A stretch of DNA of 10,615 nt from a virus (Duplodnaviria; Heunggongvirae; Uroviricota; Caudoviricetes): positions 1 to 10,615 of IMG/VR virus record IMGVR_UViG_3300028991_000014; one strand, 5' to 3'. Positions 2,200 to 8,288 of this stretch are shown one piece after another. The notes below the pieces were generated by a model that searched no databases, was not told where the DNA came from, and saw nothing but the letters and a program-made list of their open reading frames with translations. How positions within the stretch are numbered: position 1 is the stretch's first letter; every line of letters begins with the position of its first letter. The position numbers and the translations under genes were made by a program.

Positions 2200-3411
2200 A
2201 TGTGGCCTTTCAGAAGAAAAAAAGAGCAGCGCAGCATGACGCTTGATGAATTTATGGCGCTGGCTGGCACATCGAACACGGGGGCGGGTGAGTACGTATC
2301 ATCGGGGACAGCGGAATCACTCCCCGCCGTCATGAACGCCGTCACGGTCATATCTGAGGCGGTGGCTACTATGCCATGCTACCTGTACCTGGTACGCAAT
2401 GAGAAGGGGAAGGAGGCCCGCGAGTGGCTTGATTCTCATCCGGTCGATCATATCCTCAACGAGCGCCCGAACGCATGGCAAACCCCCTACCAGTTTAAGC
2501 GAATGATGATCCGCCACTGCCTGTTAAACGGTAATGCTTACGCGGTGATTCAGTGGGGGCGTGATGGTTTTCCGGCGGCTTTACATCCTTACCCGCCGCA
2601 GTCGGTGAACGTGGAGCAGACAGGAGAACACAACTGGCGCTATTGCATCACTGACGCCTACACCGGAAACACCCGCAACTATTTACCGTGGGAAGTACTT
2701 CACCTTCGTTACTCCACGGATGACGGCTTTATGGGGCGCTCACCTGTAACCATCTGCCGCGAATCGCTGGGGCTTGGGCTGGCCCAACAACGCCACGGCG
2801 CGAGCGTGATGCGTGATGGCATGATGGCAGCAGGGGTTATCACGTCAGGCGAATGGCTGGACGGCGTGAAGGGCAAACAGGCATTAGCCGCACTGGAACG
2901 CTATAAAGGGGCCAAAAACGCCGGAAAAACGCCCATCCTTGAAGGGGGCATGAGTTACCAGCAGCTGGGCATGAGTAACCAGGACGCCGAATGGCTGGCC
3001 TCCCGTCGCTTCACCATTGAAGACATCGCCCGAATGTTCAACGTCTCGCCGATTTTTCTGCAGGAATACAGCAACAGCACCTACAGCAATTTCAGCGAGG
3101 CAAGCCGCGCATTTCTCACCATGACGATGCGCCCGTGGCTGGCGAACTTTGAGCAGCAGATAAAAAACGCCTTGCTGGTGGTCTCGCCTGTACCTGGTAT
3201 CCGGTATCAGGTGGAGTTTGACAGCGCGGACCTGTTACGGGCCACACCTGGCGAACGCTTTGCCACCTATGAGCGAGGCATCAAATCCGGTGTTATGTGC
3301 CCGAACGAAGCCCGCGAACGAGAAGGGTTGTCTCCGCGTGATGGTGGTGATGAGTTCAGCCAGGCATGGAAACAGGAAGTAAAAATCAGCGAGGGAGAAA
3401 AACCGGAATGA
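2200..3411 (+). CDS. phage portal protein, HK97 family
   Basis: 403-aa product with portal hallmarks (ESLPAVMNAVTVISEAVATMP, LLNGNAYAVIQ, GGMSYQQLGMSNQDAEWL, IEDIARMFNVSP). GGGGG SD at 2189-2193; start is 1 nt after the protease stop. Confidence 0.9.
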   Translation: MWPFRRKKEQRSMTLDEFMALAGTSNTGAGEYVSSGTAESLPAVMNAVTVISEAVATMPCYLYLVRNEKGKEAREWLDSHPVDHILNERPNAWQTPYQFKRMMIRHCLLNGNAYAVIQWGRDGFPAALHPYPPQSVNVEQTGEHNWRYCITDAYTGNTRNYLPWEVLHLRYSTDDGFMGRSPVTICRESLGLGLAQQRHGASVMRDGMMAAGVITSGEWLDGVKGKQALAALERYKGAKNAGKTPILEGGMSYQQLGMSNQDAEWLASRRFTIEDIARMFNVSPIFLQEYSNSTYSNFSEASRAFLTMTMRPWLANFEQQIKNALLVVSPVPGIRYQVEFDSADLLRATPGERFATYERGIKSGVMCPNEAREREGLSPRDGGDEFSQAWKQEVKISEGEKPE

Positions 3412-3746
3412 ACATAGGGCGACTGCGTGACAGGGTAACGATTCAGACCCTGAAACAGACCAGAGCCATGACGGGCGAAATACTCGAAACGTGGGAGGAC
3501 GGTCACACACTCTGGGCAAGCGTGAACATGGTCAGCAGCAAGGAGGCCATTTCATCGGGTGCAGAGCTGGCGATTGGTACCGTAAGGATCTGGATACGGT
3601 ACCGGAAGGACATTAACGCCACCAGCCGGATAAAGGTCAATACGGGGCCGCTGGCGGGGCGTGTACTGAATATCATCGGGCAGCCGCTGCCGGATGCCGC
3701 CAGGACACGCCTTGAAATTCTTTGTCGTGAGGGCGCGGAAAAATGA
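3408..3746 (+). CDS. phage head-tail adaptor / head closure protein
   Basis: 112-aa product from ATG 3408 with motifs RVTIQ, TLWASV, RIWIRYRKDI, RLEILCRE typical of this family. Start overlaps the portal stop (ATGA); GAGGGAG SD at 3391-3397. Confidence 0.8.
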   Translation: MNIGRLRDRVTIQTLKQTRAMTGEILETWEDGHTLWASVNMVSSKEAISSGAELAIGTVRIWIRYRKDINATSRIKVNTGPLAGRVLNIIGQPLPDAARTRLEILCREGAEK

Positions 3747-4039
3747 CAGAAGAACTTATCACCCTGGAAGAAGTGAAACTCCATTGCCGCATCGATGGCG
3801 ACGAGGAAGACCAGTTAATCAGCGGATACATTGCCGCATCGCTTGAGGCGTGCCAGATACACATAGGCAGGCGCTTTGATGACGGGCTGGAGTTCACGCC
3901 AGCCATAAAGATTGGCTGCATGATGTTTATCGCTCACCTGTATGAGAATCGCCAGATTGTCGCGGATAACGCAAAAACACACGTACCCATGACGATTGGC
4001 GCACTCTGGACGGCTTACCGTGATGTGGGGGTGTACTGA
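3743..4039 (+). CDS. phage gp6-like head-tail connector protein
   Basis: 98-aa product MTEELITLEEVKLHCRIDGDEEDQLISGYIAAS... matches the gp6-like connector pattern. ATGA overlap with the adaptor stop. Confidence 0.8.
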   Translation: MTEELITLEEVKLHCRIDGDEEDQLISGYIAASLEACQIHIGRRFDDGLEFTPAIKIGCMMFIAHLYENRQIVADNAKTHVPMTIGALWTAYRDVGVY

Positions 4040-4479
4040 TGCCGTGGCAACCATTAAGACGATGTACAGAACCAGGCTGCAACAGGCGCGTGAAGTCCGG
4101 CAAGTGTGAGGAGCACAGACGCAGCGCACGCCAGCAGCAGGACAGCCGGAGAGGCAGCAGCAGGGAGCGAGGGTATACGAGGCAGTGGGAGAAATACCGC
4201 GCCATGTATCTGAGTAAAAACCCGTTATGTGCGCATTGCCTGGAAAAAGGAATATACAAGCCCGCCGTGGTGGTGGATCACATTATCCCAATCGATGGCG
4301 GTAATGATGTTCTCTTCTGGCCTGAGTGGAATCATCAGCCATTGTGCCAGGCGTGTCATAACCAGAAAACGAAATGGCTTGATCCGTCCACAAAAAACAA
4401 GCGTGCTGCGGGTGGATTCCGTGAGGAGGAAGAACGGGCCGCTAACCGCAATAACTGGATGTATGGCGCTGATGAATGA
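4039..4479 (+). CDS. HNH endonuclease (terminase-associated, cos-cleavage accessory type)
   Basis: HNH motif CAHC...VVDHIIPIDGGNDV...NHQPLCQACHNQKT; ATGA overlap with the connector stop; position immediately upstream of terS/terL is typical of HNH-dependent cos packaging. Confidence 0.85.
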   Translation: MPWQPLRRCTEPGCNRRVKSGKCEEHRRSARQQQDSRRGSSRERGYTRQWEKYRAMYLSKNPLCAHCLEKGIYKPAVVVDHIIPIDGGNDVLFWPEWNHQPLCQACHNQKTKWLDPSTKNKRAAGGFREEEERAANRNNWMYGADE

Positions 4480-4645
4480 GCGGGAACAAAACCGCCTTAT
4501 CCGTGGACTTATAAGGCAGCGTGACGCATGGAAGGCACAGGAAACAGGGCATAAAGATAAAGCATCAGGACGCGCAGAACGCATCACAGCGACGCGATTA
4601 AACGACCGTGACCGCGAGGTTATGGAATGTTTCCGCAATCGCTGA
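4472..4645 (+). CDS. hypothetical small basic protein (57 aa)
   Basis: ATG 4472 overlaps the HNH stop by 8 nt; translation MNEREQNRLIRGLIRQRDAWKAQ... is Arg/Lys-rich. It is the non-overlapping distal part of track ORF 4229-4645. No family recognised. Confidence 0.35.
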   Translation: MNEREQNRLIRGLIRQRDAWKAQETGHKDKASGRAERITATRLNDRDREVMECFRNR

Positions 4646-4768
4646 TGAGGCAGCCGGACGGGGTGGGGGGAGTTTTCAGGACGAACCCGACCCCGCCCAG
4701 AACCGACCGCCTCCCCAAATTTTTATGCACGGTAATTTTTTGAAAAATAATCTGGCGAAAAAATAAGC
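4646..4768. other. candidate cos (cohesive-end / terminase recognition) region
   Basis: Non-coding gap between the HNH region and terS with a G-run GGACGGGGTGGGGGGAG (4656-4672) followed by C-runs CCCGACCCCGCCC (4686-4698) and CGCCTCCCC (4708-4716). Position matches where HNH-dependent cos phages carry cos. Confidence 0.4.
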
Positions 4769-5125
4769 ATGGCAAGACCACCGAAAGCCCCCGCCTACCT
4801 GGATGATATCGCCGTGAAGCAGTGGCGGGAAAAATCGCGGCAGCTTGCGGAACGGGGAGACCTGACCCCTGCCGACTGGAGTAATCTGGAACTGTATTGC
4901 GTCAATTACTCGATATACCGGAAAGCCGTCGCAGACCTTGCGGCGCGCGGGTTCAGCATTGTTAACAGTCAGGGCGGAGAGAGCAGAAACCCCGCATTAA
5001 GCGCGAAATCCGACGCGGAAAGAGTGATGATAAAAATGGCCTCTTTGCTCGGTTTTGACCCGATAAGCCGCCGTAAAAATCCACCGGAAACAGAAGAAGA
5101 GGACGAGCTTGACCGCCTGGAATAA
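4769..5125 (+). CDS. phage terminase small subunit, P27 family
   Basis: 118-aa product MARPPKAPAYLDD...LELYCVNYSIYRKAV...GGESRNPAL...LLGFDPISRRK fits the P27-family TerS pattern; immediately upstream of and overlapping the large terminase gene. Confidence 0.85.
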   Translation: MARPPKAPAYLDDIAVKQWREKSRQLAERGDLTPADWSNLELYCVNYSIYRKAVADLAARGFSIVNSQGGESRNPALSAKSDAERVMIKMASLLGFDPISRRKNPPETEEEDELDRLE

Positions 5126-6770
5126 GTACGCAGAAGACGTAAAAACGGGCAAGATTCCGGCCTGTAAACGGCTGAAACAGGCCGTTAAACGATACTTTTC
5201 GGACCTTGAAAACCCCCTTTACATGTTCGATCGTGAGGTTGTTGAGCGGTTTATTGCCTTTTCCAGGGTGTGCCCGCACGTAAAAGGGCCGATGCGTGGA
5301 AGACCCATTGAGCTGGAACCGTGGCAGCAGTTTGCCTTTGCGTGCATCCTCGGCTTTAAGGTTAAGGCCACCGGAAGGCGCAAATACACGAGCGCCTTTA
5401 TCGAAGTGCCGCGCAAAAATGCGAAATCCACGACAGCCGCGATTCTGGCTAACTGGTTTCTGATTATGGAGAACGGGCAGCAGGATATTTACACCGCAGC
5501 GGTGAGCCGCGACCAGGCGCGGATCGTTTTTGATGATGCGCGTCAGATGTGCCTTTTATCCCGACCGTTACGCAAGAGAGTGAATATTCAGGCCCACAAG
5601 GTGATGCACCCGAAAAGCAACAGCCTGTTAAAGCCGCTGGCAGCAAAAGCGGCAACCATCGAGGGCACAAACCCAAGCCTTTCCATCGTGGACGAATACC
5701 ACCTACACCCCGATAACGGCGTTTATTCCGCGCTTGAGCTGGGGATGGGCGCACGTCCCGAAGGGCTGTTATTTGCCATTACCACATCGGGCAGTAACGT
5801 CGTTTCAGCCTGTAAACAGCACTATGATTATTGCTGCCAGATCCTGGACGGCGAAGAGGTCAACGATTCAATTTTTGTGCTGATTTACGAGCTGGACGAC
5901 GAAAACGAGGTTGATGATCCGGCGATGTGGATAAAGGCTAACCCTAACATCGATGTTTCCGTGGATCGTGAAAAACTGGCCTCAACCATCCAGAAAGCGC
6001 GGGGTATTCCGTCGCAATGGGTGGAGATGATGACAAAGCGATTTAATATCTGGTGCCAGGGGGCTACCCCGTGGATGGGTAACGGCGCATGGGCTGAGTG
6101 TGCCGGAACGTTCACGGAGGAAGATTTACACGGGCAGGAGTGTTACGCGGGGCTGGACTTATCATCAACCAGCGATATTTCCAGCGTGTGCTATGCCTTT
6201 CCGGTTGGTAAAACCATTATGCTGATTTCCCGTCATTATCTGCCGGAGTTCCAGCTACAGAACCCCGCCAATAAAAACCGCGCTGTCTATCGCCAGTGGG
6301 CTAAAGCGGGCTGGATACGCACAACGCCAGGTGACTGCATTGATTACGACCGGATCAGAGATGACATCATGCAGGATGCGGAGAAATTTAATATCAGGCT
6401 GGTGGGCTTTGATACGTGGAACGCCACGCACCTGAGAACGCAATTACAGGGGGCTGGTTTTGAGGTGGAGCCGTTCCCGCAAACCTACCTCAGATTCAGT
6501 CCGGCGGCGAAATCGTTCGAAGTTTTTGTTAACCGCAGGGTGATTGTGCATCGTGGCGATCCGGTGTTGTCCTGGTCGATGAGTAACGTCGTGATGCAGA
6601 GTGACGCGAACGCCAATATCAAGCCGAACAAGAAAAAATCACCGAACAAGATAGACCCGAGCGTAGCGGCGCTGATGGCGTTTGGTACATTCCAGGCAGA
6701 GCATGAGGATTTTGCTTTTGATATAAGCGACAGCCACCGCCAGAAACTGGAAGAATTTAGCGGGGTGTAA
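5109..6770 (+). CDS. phage terminase large subunit
   Basis: 553-aa product with an ATPase Walker A-like segment (EVPRKNAKSTTAA), DEYH Walker B-like motif and a C-terminal nuclease-type domain. Apparent TTG start at 5109 with AGAGGA SD 5 nt upstream; overlaps the terS 3' end. The first in-frame ATG would remove the conserved N-terminus. Confidence 0.9.
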   Translation: MTAWNKYAEDVKTGKIPACKRLKQAVKRYFSDLENPLYMFDREVVERFIAFSRVCPHVKGPMRGRPIELEPWQQFAFACILGFKVKATGRRKYTSAFIEVPRKNAKSTTAAILANWFLIMENGQQDIYTAAVSRDQARIVFDDARQMCLLSRPLRKRVNIQAHKVMHPKSNSLLKPLAAKAATIEGTNPSLSIVDEYHLHPDNGVYSALELGMGARPEGLLFAITTSGSNVVSACKQHYDYCCQILDGEEVNDSIFVLIYELDDENEVDDPAMWIKANPNIDVSVDREKLASTIQKARGIPSQWVEMMTKRFNIWCQGATPWMGNGAWAECAGTFTEEDLHGQECYAGLDLSSTSDISSVCYAFPVGKTIMLISRHYLPEFQLQNPANKNRAVYRQWAKAGWIRTTPGDCIDYDRIRDDIMQDAEKFNIRLVGFDTWNATHLRTQLQGAGFEVEPFPQTYLRFSPAAKSFEVFVNRRVIVHRGDPVLSWSMSNVVMQSDANANIKPNKKKSPNKIDPSVAALMAFGTFQAEHEDFAFDISDSHRQKLEEFSGV

Positions 6771-6783
6771 TGAGGTCAGCAGC

Positions 6784-7065
6784 ATGACAGAAGCCGAAAT
6801 ACTGCGATTAATCCGCCGCGTCTCTGGAATCAGCCAGCAGCATGACGAACAGGCCACGCAGCCGGACAGCGTGACCGCCGAAAATTATGCGCGTGTTGTT
6901 GCTGAGGTGATGCGCCGTGATGGTATCCAGCTTAATGATGTGGATATGCGCAACATACGGATCCGCGTTCTTGAAATGCTGGCCTACCGTCGCCGCGTGC
7001 AGACGTACAGGGAAAAAGCAAAAATTACGTACCACTGGAAGAAGCCGGAGCGGTTACGGCGGTAA
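6784..7065 (+). CDS. hypothetical protein (93 aa), last gene of the element
   Basis: ORF with GAGG SD about 8 nt upstream of ATG 6784; basic C-terminus (KKPERLRR); no recognisable family. Its stop abuts the first copy of a 28-bp direct repeat. Confidence 0.45.
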   Translation: MTEAEILRLIRRVSGISQQHDEQATQPDSVTAENYARVVAEVMRRDGIQLNDVDMRNIRIRVLEMLAYRRRVQTYREKAKITYHWKKPERLRR

Positions 7066-7098: not shown

Positions 7099-7111
7099 TT
7101 GGCTGGTGGGT

Positions 7112-7131
7112 GAGTTGCAGATCTGCAACTC
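7112..7131. repeat. perfect 20-bp palindrome GAGTTGCAGATCTGCAACTC
   Basis: Exact self-complementarity read directly from the sequence. It lies between the two direct-repeat copies, together with further hairpins at 7203-7225 (8-bp stem CGATACCC/GGGTATCG) and 7263-7276 (GGCGGAATTCCGCC). Confidence 0.8.
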
Positions 7132-7289
7132 GACCATGAAATTACGGAAAATACCCGTAGTTTGGGTAGTAAGAGTAACACCCAGATTTTGGGGCTTACT
7201 CGCGATACCCAAATAAAGGGTATCGGTGGAAGAAATATCGTTTCTCATATGTGAGTACCGAGGGCGGAATTCCGCCTTCGGTTACTCGC

Positions 7290-7317
7290 TGAACTTAAAG
7301 CAAAGCGCAAAATTGCG
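7290..7317. repeat. 28-bp direct repeat, copy 2
   Basis: Identical to 7071-7098. Confidence 0.8.
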
Positions 7318-7644
7318 CTGATTACTGGTTGGAATTGTTCCAGAGTGCAAATTTACACTATGGCCTAACCCGTTGATATTTCCGGCAACCTCAATTTGAG
7401 GAGGCAGGGAACATCCCCTAAATCCGGTGATGTATTCGGCCCCTTTAACGGGTATTACGATAATCATAACACCTACCGAACAGGTAAAGGCCACCAGCCT
7501 GATTAACGTTTAACCGGAAAAAAAGCCAGGTATCCAATCTCGATATGTGGATCCCCATATCGACAGCAATGCCCCCTTAAAATTATCCGCCTTTATATTT
7601 CTTGTGCCTATTTGTTCCACGTTGTTTCATACAGTGCGCCGAAC

Positions 7645-7668
7645 GGTGTAGTCACTGGTGTAGTCATT
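7645..7668. repeat. tandem 12-bp direct repeats GGTGTAGTCACT / GGTGTAGTCATT near the element end
   Basis: Two adjacent near-identical units about 75 bp from the junction with tqsA. Candidate recombinase arm-type or regulator binding sites (inference). Confidence 0.5.
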
Positions 7669-7712
7669 TTGCGATTTTTGGCACTTTTTGTGGTGCAAAT
7701 TATTTAATTAAA

Positions 7713-7877
7713 TCAATGTGTTAAGTGAAATAAGTTATATATAACAGCAATAAATAATGCGAGAATAAACGGCACGATGATCTCGGCGGCAAAACGGATA
7801 CCGCAGAGAATAATGACCAGCATTCCCAACATAATGACGATTTTTAGGCCATTGAGCGTGATGATCGGCTTTGCCAT
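7713..7877 (-). pseudogene. tqsA: tqsA (ydgG) 5' fragment truncated by the element insertion
   Basis: Minus-strand translation from ATG 7877 gives [46 protein letters not shown], which matches the TqsA N-terminus as recalled. The frame then diverges into AT-rich element DNA (YNLFHLTH, stop at 7713-7715). Divergent from mdtJ as in E. coli. Confidence 0.7.
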
Positions 7878-8288
7878 GCTTGTCCCCGTTTTTTCTTCCT
7901 TTGCTAATAATAATGTCTTTTTCGCTCCGTCATCATAACGAAAATCAAACCGCTCAGGTAAAGAAGTGAAAATATTTTGAGTTAATTCTTAAGCTATGAT
8001 ACAAATCAGGCGTGTTCAACTACCGAGGACAATTATCATCCGCGATGACGAGAAGCAACACTGCGGATAATTGTAATATTATGGACAATTTGTTCAGGAC
8101 GTTATTTTCAACATTTACCCATCTTCGTACCTCATCCACTATCTTGCTCGTAGGTGAGCAGCACTGGCGCAACGCGCTTTAGTCCTTTCTTCTGCCTAAG
8201 CTTGCCCTATGCGCGGGGCTTGACCACTTTACTTTGGTTTCGCTGAATTAAGCGAAAATTAAAATAATTCTCTTGCAGGAGAAGGACA

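What the first reader, a model, noticed from the sequence alone, without database searches (positions are those of the whole stretch)
4646..4768. Candidate cos site between the HNH region and terS, implying a packaged genome that starts with terS-terL
The only sizeable non-coding gap inside the structural block (123 bp) has strand-asymmetric G-runs (4656-4672) followed by C-runs (4686-4716) and then an AT-rich stretch before terS. In HNH-dependent cos phages the HNH gene is the last gene, cos follows, and terS-terL are the first genes of the linear genome; the layout here matches that. A private cos and terminase would let the element package its own DNA selectively.
Basis: partly seen in the sequence, partly recalled or inferred. 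Interest (0 to 1): 0.5.

Follow-up and report, generated by a model that had tools for sequence, protein, structure and literature searches.

The report
Cos packaging site of a cf-PICI
The 123-bp gap between the HNH and small-terminase genes of this capsid-forming phage satellite holds a deeply conserved DNA signal of about 95 bp that is very probably the site where the satellite's own terminase cuts and starts packaging its genome; it is an expected part of a known system whose place and sequence had not been described in the papers I could read.

Summary
The window is an EcCIEDL933-like capsid-forming PICI (cf-PICI) of E. coli. The 123-bp gap is the largest in the structural block. It holds the most G-rich 17-mer and the most C-rich 31-mer of the whole window.

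In 38 related elements the gap carries one copy of a roughly 95-bp non-coding motif, always upstream of terS. The motif (window 4657-4750) has four parts:
- a G box;
- a 17-18-nt spacer of variable sequence and fixed length;
- a C box;
- an AT block with a T-run.

These blocks are better conserved than terS codon positions 1 and 2. No RNA structure, open reading frame, promoter or terminator is conserved.

A profile of the motif, searched against the circularised HK97 genome, puts its best hit on HK97's mapped cos cleavage site, in the same orientation. Two independent lysate-derived assemblies of Klebsiella cf-PICIs are linear. Both start at terS, end after HNH and the small ORF, and lack exactly this motif.

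The exact nick positions (predicted 4713-4719) and the overhang type are not shown. Published work already showed that cf-PICIs package exclusively with their own terminase, so this is a new member of a known kind. Interest is modest.

The parts
4039..4479 (+). HNH endonuclease gene, the presumed accessory nuclease for cos cleavage
   Evidence: PF01844 HNH, E 1.3e-07. It is 37% identical to HK97 gp74 HNH, E 9e-18. Mutation of the packaging genes of EcCIEDL933 abolished transfer.
4463..4645 (+). 60-aa ORF of unknown function, the last gene before the gap; it overlaps the HNH stop by 17 nt
   Evidence: Annotated as a hypothetical protein in a 99.6%-identical RefSeq genome. No Pfam hit. Its C-terminal codons are conserved in Enterobacterales relatives.
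4657..4750 (+). Whole conserved non-coding motif, the proposed cos region
   Evidence: It is the only hit of the motif profile in the window, at 83.3 bits and E 2e-24. There is one hit per element in all 39 related genome loci, always upstream of terS on the same strand.
4660..4682 (+). G box, GGGGTGGGGGGAGTTTTCAGGAC
   Evidence: Mean majority fraction is 0.82 across 27 sequences from three orders. It aligns with the G9 run that ends about 40 nt upstream of the HK97 cleavage site. Its function is inferred: an upstream terminase/HNH contact or a termination element.
4683..4700 (+). Spacer of variable sequence but fixed length
   Evidence: Majority fraction is 0.61, with essentially no indels across 27 sequences.
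4701..4719 (+). C box, AACCGACCGCCTCCCCAAA; predicted cleavage zone with the top-strand nick at about 4713-4719
   Evidence: Majority fraction is 0.88. It aligns with HK97 GACCGCCGCCAAA, which ends at the mapped cleavage site (PMC11331095). It lies at the centre of the 69 bp missing from the vB_KppS-Ant record. The nick position is inferred, not shown.
4720..4750 (+). [quoted passage not shown]
   Evidence: This is the most conserved segment, with a majority fraction of 0.91. Its T-run aligns with the A-tract of the HK97 TerS site at +15..+29. 119 of 120 exact matches in IMG/VR are followed by a terS homologue within 400 nt. Binding itself was not tested.
4751..4768 (+). Poorly conserved leader and ribosome-binding region of terS
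   Evidence: Majority fraction is 0.56 and indels are present.
4769..5125 (+). terS, small terminase of the P27 family
   Evidence: PF05119 Terminase_4, E 1.3e-23. Annotated as P27 family in RefSeq.
5109..6770 (+). terL, large terminase
   Evidence: PF03354 and PF20441. It is 27% identical to HK97 TerL, E 6e-47.

Best explanation
The gap holds the cos site of a capsid-forming PICI (EcCIEDL933-like). After induction the excised element replicates into concatemers, or into circles in which terL is followed by attP, int, the replication and capsid genes, HNH and this gap. The element's own P27-family TerS is proposed to bind the AT block (4720-4750), just downstream of the cut. TerL together with the HNH protein would make staggered nicks in or at the 3' edge of the C box (about 4713-4719), probably leaving a short 3' overhang as in HK97. 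Packaging then runs rightwards from the AT block through terS-terL. It ends at the next cos, so that the small ORF, the G box and the C box form the right end. The G box (4660-4682), held at a fixed distance upstream, is a second protein contact, for cleavage or termination. The AT block differs from the TerS site of the HK97-type helper, so the helper terminase should not use this site and the satellite terminase should not use the phage's. Shown here: the motif, its conservation, its linkage to terS, its resemblance to the HK97 cos, and assembly breaks in relatives. Inferred: which protein binds which block, the nick positions, and the overhang.
For: 1. Identity of the element. The gene order is capsid, protease, portal, head closure, connector, HNH, terS, terL, by Pfam, inside an island with int, alpA-type and primase genes. 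This is the published cf-PICI layout.

2. Conservation. In 27 sequences from Enterobacterales, Aeromonas and Pasteurellaceae (TerS 61-84% identical), the G box, C box and AT block have majority fractions of 0.82, 0.88 and 0.91. terS codon positions 1, 2 and 3 have 0.83, 0.82 and 0.63. The spacer between the boxes keeps its length.

3. One copy per element. The motif always lies upstream of terS in 39 of 39 genome loci and in 119 of 120 IMG/VR matches.

4. Match to HK97. A profile of the motif, searched against both strands of the circularised 39.7-kb HK97 genome, gives its top hit (E 0.035) across the mapped cos junction in the same orientation. None of 2000 dinucleotide shuffles of the HK97 cos reaches that score. 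The HK97 cleavage site, the TerS site at +15..+29 and the 10-nt 3' overhang are experimental (PMC11331095; PMC9410871).

5. vB_KppS-Ant (LR881103). This record came from Nextera XT and SPAdes assembly of lysate DNA (PMC8006926) and equals the K. pneumoniae DSM 30104/ATCC 13883 element. It is linear, starts 22 bp before terS and ends in the G box. It lacks 69 bp centred on the C box.

6. Klebsiella phage P12620-1. This record carries an appended cf-PICI in the same permutation and lacks 134 bp that include the whole motif.

7. Published gel evidence. Packaged DNA of the DSM 30104 element forms concatemers ascribed to cohesive ends (10.1101/2025.02.11.637232).

8. Not the helper's cos. The HK97-type cos is not in the window, although the helper HK106 has it at 96.9% identity.
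Against: - The physical ends of this E. coli element were not mapped.
- The assembly evidence comes from Klebsiella relatives (TerS 84% identical). It also rests on how tagmentation libraries and assemblers treat linear ends.
- Pairwise similarity of the gap to the HK97 cos is not significant: 215 of 1000 shuffles reach the local score, and a single-sequence nhmmer search finds nothing. Only the profile hit is significant, and at E 0.035 it is weak.
- HK97 TerS and this TerS show no detectable sequence similarity, and HK97 gp1 is not in PF05119. The analogy between the TerS sites therefore rests on position and the T-run only.
- Three alignment anchors place the nick at 4713, 4717 or 4719, so it is unresolved.
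- No IMG/VR contig ends at the motif, although most of those contigs are prophage calls from genomes.
Confidence: 0.85

Rival explanations
1. The cos site is in the gap, but the cut lies in the variable 17-18-nt spacer (4683-4700). On this view the G box and C box are flanking recognition sites, and the cohesive-end sequence is free to vary between elements.
For: The spacer keeps its length while its sequence varies, as expected if only geometry matters there. The vB_KppS-Ant record ends exactly at the G box/spacer boundary.
Against: In the profile alignment to HK97 the mapped cleavage falls in the C box, not the spacer. A cut in the spacer would require very unequal loss of sequence at the two ends of the Ant assembly: about 0-10 nt at one end against 60-69 nt at the other. 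Cohesive ends of related cos phages are usually conserved (general knowledge).
Confidence: 0.12
2. The motif is a pac site. On this view TerS binds here, but packaging is headful, with imprecise and circularly permuted ends.
For: TerS recognition sites of pac phages also lie in or near terS. No direct end mapping exists for this element.
Against: An HNH gene adjacent to terS-terL is the signature of HNH-dependent cos phages (Kala et al. 2014, as cited). TerL is homologous to HK97 TerL, and its nearest phage relatives include phi105-type and HK97-type phages. Two lysate assemblies are linear with the break at the same place, rather than permuted or circular. Cohesive-end concatemers were reported for the Klebsiella element.
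Confidence: 0.03
3. The motif is a transcriptional or RNA element for terS-terL, such as a promoter, terminator, antiterminator or leader RNA, and not a packaging site.
For: It is an AT-rich stretch just upstream of terS that contains TTGAAA. It lies within a long co-directional operon.
Against: The scan found no promoter-like site on the + strand and no terminator in the gap. The region between the motif and the ATG is variable, and in some Pasteurellaceae it is 140-220 nt long. RNAalifold predicts no conserved pairs. There is no Rfam match above noise. This reading does not explain the HK97 cos match or the assembly breaks.
Confidence: 0.04
4. The G-run and C-run are a chance compositional oddity of an ordinary intergenic spacer.
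For: The gap folds no better than shuffled sequence, and this window's inverted repeat is not conserved.
Against: The non-coding blocks are more conserved than the coding flank across three orders, and profile hits reach E 1e-17 to 1e-29.
Confidence: 0.01

Closest known systems
cos site of phage HK97 (HNH-dependent; TerS gp1, TerL gp2, HNH gp74; 10-nt 3' overhang)
   Same: It sits between the HNH gene and terS. It has a G run about 40-55 nt upstream of the cut, a C-rich box (GACCGCC...CAAA) at the cut, and a T-run downstream where TerS binds. The distance from CAAA to the terS ATG is 49 nt in both. TerL and HNH are homologous (27% and 37% identity).
   Different: The sequences differ too much for pairwise detection. 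The T-run lies about 6-7 nt closer to the C box. TerS belongs to another family (PF05119, against none for gp1). In HK97 the cos separates the last and first genes of a phage genome, whereas here it lies inside the structural operon of an integrated 15-kb satellite.
cos of phage lambda (cosQ, cosN, cosB)
   Same: It has the same three-part logic: an upstream element, a GC-rich nicking site, and a downstream small-terminase binding region next to the terminase genes.
   Different: Lambda makes 12-nt 5' overhangs, needs no HNH protein, and uses IHF with repeated R sites. No repeated TerS sites or IHF consensus were seen here. The lambda details rest on general knowledge and were not tested.
Satellites that carry the helper's cos (P4, cos-type SaPIs such as SaPIbov5) or retarget the helper's TerS (Rpp in EcCICFT073-type PICIs)
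   Same: Each is a satellite with a cos site that decides what is packaged.
   Different: Those satellites use the helper's terminase. This element has its own TerS, TerL and HNH, and a cos that lacks the helper-type TerS site.
Klebsiella cf-PICI KpCIDSM30104, equal to the record vB_KppS-Ant
   Same: It has the same motif and gene order (TerS 84% identical). Its lysate-derived record starts at terS and ends in the G box.
   Different: It has different accessory genes after terL and a different host genus.

Membership tests
Capsid-forming PICI (cf-PICI, Proteobacteria type) | Gene order capsid, protease, portal, head connectors, then hnh, terS, terL, with no tail or lysis genes | tested here: met
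   Pfam assignments. The annotated island in a 99.6%-identical genome has no tail or lysis genes. The layout is as published.
Capsid-forming PICI (cf-PICI, Proteobacteria type) | PICI backbone (integrase, alpA-type regulator, primase/replication module) and a size of about 10-18 kb | tested here: met
   In L001 the integrase, an HTH regulator and a DNA primase lie upstream, spanning about 15 kb from int to the last gene. The same layout recurs at other integration sites.
Capsid-forming PICI (cf-PICI, Proteobacteria type) | Induction by a helper phage and transfer in its own small capsids with helper tails | not testable with these tools
   Shown experimentally for EcCIEDL933 but not for this exact copy.
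HK97-type, HNH-dependent cos site | Lies between an HNH endonuclease gene and terS-terL | tested here: met
   A 60-aa ORF intervenes between HNH and the site.
HK97-type, HNH-dependent cos site | Sequence or profile similarity to a mapped cos of the family | tested here: inconclusive
   The profile's top hit in the HK97 genome is the cos junction (E 0.035, and 0 of 2000 shuffles reach it). Pairwise searches are not significant.
HK97-type, HNH-dependent cos site | Unique, non-permuted ends of virion DNA at the site | tested here: inconclusive
   Two lysate-derived assemblies of Klebsiella relatives break in the homologous gap. There are no data for this element, and reads were not available.
HK97-type, HNH-dependent cos site | Staggered cleavage that leaves a roughly 10-nt 3' overhang and needs TerL plus HNH | not testable with these tools
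   Cohesive-end concatemers were reported for the Klebsiella element. The overhang type is unknown.
HK97-type, HNH-dependent cos site | TerS binds a specific site just downstream of the cut | not testable with these tools
   The AT block is the best-conserved segment and is tied to terS. No binding data exist.
Headful (pac) packaging signal | Circularly permuted, terminally redundant virion DNA | tested here: not met
   The Ant and P12620-1 assemblies are linear with the same break and no terminal overlap. This is indirect evidence.

The most novel reading that the evidence does not exclude
The cos may be modular, and private only with respect to the helper. On this reading the G box and C box are read by TerL and HNH and are shared in outline with HK97-type phages. 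The AT block is read by the P27-family TerS and supplies the discrimination. The whole motif is nearly invariant from E. coli to Pasteurellaceae, so cf-PICIs of this lineage would share one common cos. Any of them could then package any other, or any DNA that picks up these roughly 95 bp. That would help explain why identical cf-PICIs occur across genera. A hint comes from Klebsiella phage ST13-OXA48phi12.4. It combines an HK97-like upstream half with a P27-family TerS, and it carries TTTTTGTGCAC at the same offset from GACCGCC as TTTTTATGCAC in this window. The motif profile, however, does not detect that phage's gap.
Probability: 0.35. Interest if true: 0.55.

Novelty: new member of a known kind. 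Interest (0 to 1): 0.35.

Why it matters
cf-PICIs are known to package only their own DNA with their own TerS, TerL and HNH. The papers I could read treat the cos as implied and do not say where it is or what it looks like. A defined 95-bp motif gives several practical things:
- a search handle for cf-PICIs and for DNA they could mobilise;
- a minimal cassette for making plasmids transducible by cf-PICI capsids;
- a natural comparison with the structurally characterised HK97 system, to ask how cos specificity is divided between TerS and TerL/HNH.

It is a useful detail, not a new principle.

Tried and rejected
1. Pairwise alignment of the gap to the HK97 cos was not significant: 215 of 1000 shuffles reached the local score, and a single-sequence nhmmer search found nothing. 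Only the profile search worked.

2. I looked for virome contigs that end at the motif. An IMG/VR scan with TerS and one with the AT-block pattern gave no contig end at the motif. Most of those contigs are prophage calls from isolate genomes, so this is uninformative.

3. The look-up of encoding contigs with the exact TerS returned only long chromosomal contigs.

4. Rfam gave only a noise hit, mir-483 at E 0.41. RNAalifold predicted no pairs. The single-strand fold is no better than shuffles. An RNA or hairpin element is rejected.

5. The ORFs that cross the gap (4608-4766 on + and 4620-4781 on -) are rejected as coding. No frame is open in all 27 relatives; the best is 17 of 27. Conservation shows blocks, not codon periodicity.

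6. The promoter and terminator scan found nothing relevant in the gap on the + strand.

7. The motif profile did not detect the gap of Klebsiella phage phi12.4. The pairwise window-to-phi12.4 similarity is modest (18 of 2000 shuffles) and vanishes when the family consensus is used. I keep it only as a lead.

8. A profile of four TerS sequences found no solved structure. A single-sequence AlphaFold model of TerS had a mean pLDDT of 55.8 and was not used for fold search.

9. I could not tell which gene is the 'hypothetical gene 1792' of the EcCIEDL933 paper.

Full report
**What the window is.** Pfam assigns the ORFs as follows:
- 383-1585: HK97-fold major capsid protein
- 1527-2198: S78 prohead protease
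- 2200-3411: portal
- 3366-3746: head completion protein
- 3743-4039: head-tail connector
- 4039-4479: HNH endonuclease
- 4769-5125: P27-family small terminase (PF05119)
- 5109-6770: large terminase

The region 4400-5200 is present in 506 of 5426 complete E. coli genomes, always on the chromosome. In a 99.6%-identical genome it lies in an island of about 15 kb. That island has an integrase, an HTH regulator, a primase and SSB, and no tail or lysis genes. It sits next to mdtJI/ydgD. This is the published layout of Proteobacterial capsid-forming PICIs, whose prototype is EcCIEDL933 (10.1101/2022.09.08.507074).

**Checking the observation.** The sequence is as described. The 17-mer at 4656 (76% G) and the 31-mer at 4686 (65% C) are each the single most extreme of their kind in the window. 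The 123-bp gap is the largest in the structural block, the next being 55 bp. One correction applies: a 60-aa ORF (4463-4645, annotated in RefSeq) lies between HNH and the gap. The imperfect inverted repeat 4656-4668 / 4686-4698 gives no unusual fold (z = -0.67) and is not conserved.

**Comparative anatomy.** A TerS alignment retrieved 39 loci from one-genome-per-species bacterial genomes. They cover many Enterobacterales genera, Aeromonas simiae and many Pasteurellaceae, with TerS 63-100% identical. An alignment of 27 gap regions shows the following segments in window coordinates:
- G box, 4660-4682: GGGGTGGGGGGAGTTTTCAGGAC
- spacer, 4683-4700: variable in sequence but essentially free of indels
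- C box, 4701-4719: consensus AACCGCCCGCCCCCTCAAA, here AACCGACCGCCTCCCCAAA
- AT block, 4720-4750: consensus TTTTTACGCACGGTGATTTTTTTGAAAATAA
- leader, 4751-4768: poorly conserved, running up to the ATG

Majority fractions are 0.82 for the G box, 0.61 for the spacer, 0.88 for the C box, 0.91 for the AT block and 0.56 for the leader. For terS codon positions 1, 2 and 3 they are 0.83, 0.82 and 0.63. The non-coding blocks are therefore under stronger constraint than the protein next to them.

A profile of window 4656-4752 finds one hit in the window (4657-4750, 83 bits). It also finds exactly one hit in each of the 39 loci, always upstream of terS on the same strand and 10-221 nt from it. Of 120 exact matches to the AT block in IMG/VR, 119 are followed by a terS homologue within 400 nt, and the last is cut off by the end of the locus.

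**What it is not.**
- Not an RNA: Rfam gives only noise, and RNAalifold predicts no conserved pair.
- Not coding: no reading frame is open in all relatives.
- Not a promoter or terminator: the scan finds no + strand promoter or terminator in the gap.
- In some Pasteurellaceae the motif is separated from terS by 140-220 nt of unrelated sequence. This argues against a leader or RBS function.

**Comparison with a mapped cos.** The HK97 record starts and ends at its cohesive ends. HNH gp74 is the last gene and terS starts at +50. Published experiments place the cleavage between -1 and +1, the TerS site at +15..+29 with an A-tract, and a 10-nt 3' overhang. They also show that gp74 stimulates cleavage (PMC11331095; PMC9410871).

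Read across its junction, HK97 has a G9 run, then about 30 nt, then GACCGCCGCCAAA|GTTTGAATTTAACGCTAACCCGATTTTTTT. The window has a G box, then about 32 nt, then GACCGCCTCCCCAAATTTTTATGCACGGTAATTTTTT. The terS ATG lies 49 nt after CAAA in both.

Pairwise alignment is not significant. The motif profile was then searched against both strands of the circularised 39.7-kb HK97 genome. Its best hit (E 0.035, 9.1 bits, model positions 5-87) lies across the cos junction in the same orientation, and all other hits have E > 1. None of 2000 dinucleotide shuffles of the HK97 cos region reaches that score.

TerL and HNH are homologous to those of HK97 (27% identity with E 6e-47, and 37% with E 9e-18). TerS is not detectably similar. 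The helper used for EcCIEDL933, HK106, has the HK97-type cos at 96.9% identity. That sequence is absent from the window.

**Evidence from packaged DNA of relatives.** The GenBank record LR881103 (vB_KppS-Ant) was assembled with SPAdes from a Nextera XT library of lysate DNA. It is more than 99% identical to part of the K. pneumoniae DSM 30104 genome (PMC8006926). It is a 16.5-kb cf-PICI. The linear record starts 22 bp before terS and ends at ...GGGGTGGGGGAGGTTTTCAGGAC. Both ends match the ATCC 13883 (= DSM 30104) chromosome exactly, but 69 bp between them are missing. The missing piece is the spacer, C box and AT block, centred on ...CCCCCTCAAATTT.... A circular or permuted template would give an arbitrary break with a terminal overlap. 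A loss of some tens of bases at each end is what tagmentation does to fixed linear ends (general knowledge).

A second record is independent: Klebsiella phage P12620-1. It is a phage contig with baseplate genes to which a 15.9-kb cf-PICI is appended in the same permutation. The cf-PICI part starts at the terS ATG and ends 5 nt before the stop of the small ORF. It lacks 134 bp that include the whole motif. Neither record has a profile hit.

The 2025 preprint on the DSM 30104 element also reports a high-molecular-weight band of packaged DNA, ascribed to annealed cohesive ends.

**Mechanism and its uncertain parts.** The best reading is an HK97-type cos:
- TerS binds the AT block.
- TerL plus HNH nick in or at the edge of the C box.
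- The genome is packaged from the terS side and ends with the small ORF, G box and C box.

Three anchors place the top-strand nick after three different positions. The profile alignment, or equal spacing from the T-run, gives 4713. The shared GACCGCC gives 4717. The shared CAAA gives 4719. The midpoint of the Ant gap falls between them. A cut in the variable spacer is a minor alternative. The roles of the G box and of the fixed spacer length are inferred only.

**Novelty.** Exclusive packaging by the satellite's own TerS, TerL and HNH is published, and cos-type packaging is assumed there. The papers available to me do not locate or describe the site. The finding is therefore a correct and useful annotation of a known system: a new member of the HK97-type cos sites.

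The most novel reading still open is a modular cos that is shared by all cf-PICIs of this lineage while being closed to the helper. The near-invariance of the motif across three orders is compatible with this. Klebsiella phage ST13-OXA48phi12.4 pairs an HK97-like upstream half with a P27-family TerS, and it has a window-like TTTTTGTGCAC at the same offset. The motif profile, however, does not detect that phage's gap.

Noticed in passing
L088 2966-3010 (Shigella flexneri SFBU1023); corresponds to window 4691-4793: The Shigella copy has a 96-bp deletion between two CCCCGCC repeats (window 4691-4697 and 4787-4793). It removes the C box, the AT block and the first codons of terS, so this copy has probably lost its packaging site and its TerS.
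   Followed up: partly
L247 (PQ569648.1, Klebsiella phage P12620-1), record 90645-106503: This 'complete genome' of 106.5 kb looks like a chimeric assembly. A phage part with baseplate genes is joined to a whole cf-PICI in virion permutation, which shows that cf-PICI DNA was in the lysate.
   Followed up: partly
L002 (LR881103.1, vB_KppS-Ant): The record is described in its paper as a filamentous ssDNA prophage. Its gene content is that of a cf-PICI identical to the K. pneumoniae DSM 30104/ATCC 13883 island. A 2.3-kb gene after terL is annotated as a tape measure protein, which seems doubtful.
   Followed up: partly
window 4463-4645: A 60-aa ORF overlaps the HNH stop and ends at the gap. Its C-terminal codons (...ECFRNR) are conserved in Enterobacterales relatives, and it has no Pfam family. 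It might be the 'hypothetical gene 1792' whose loss reduced EcCIEDL933 transfer, but I could not establish this.
   Followed up: partly
L109-L116, L126 (Pasteurellaceae bacterium Macca); L108, L117, L122: One Pasteurellaceae genome holds at least ten copies of the terS locus. In most of them, and in three other species, 140-220 nt with short palindromic repeats are inserted between the motif and terS.
   Followed up: no
L250-L259: Elements with an identical TerS and the same 123-bp gap are integrated at three or more different chromosomal sites (next to mdtJI, next to phoQ, next to clpS). They carry different replication modules (D5_N primase, AAA_25, DUF927). The exact TerS sequence is listed in 30,708 blocks of the collection.
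   Followed up: no
L249 1222-1351 (Klebsiella phage ST13-OXA48phi12.4): A phage whose HNH-terS gap has an upstream half 75% identical to HK97, including the G run and GACCGCCGCC. It has a P27-family TerS and a different downstream half, which suggests that cos halves can be exchanged together with TerS.
   Followed up: partly
window about 7100-8200: G+C drops to 37-45% after the last island gene (6784-7065). In the near-identical genome a truncated autoinducer-2 transporter pseudogene lies at a position equal to window 7564-7707. This suggests that the right attachment site and a disrupted or remnant host gene are here.
   Followed up: no
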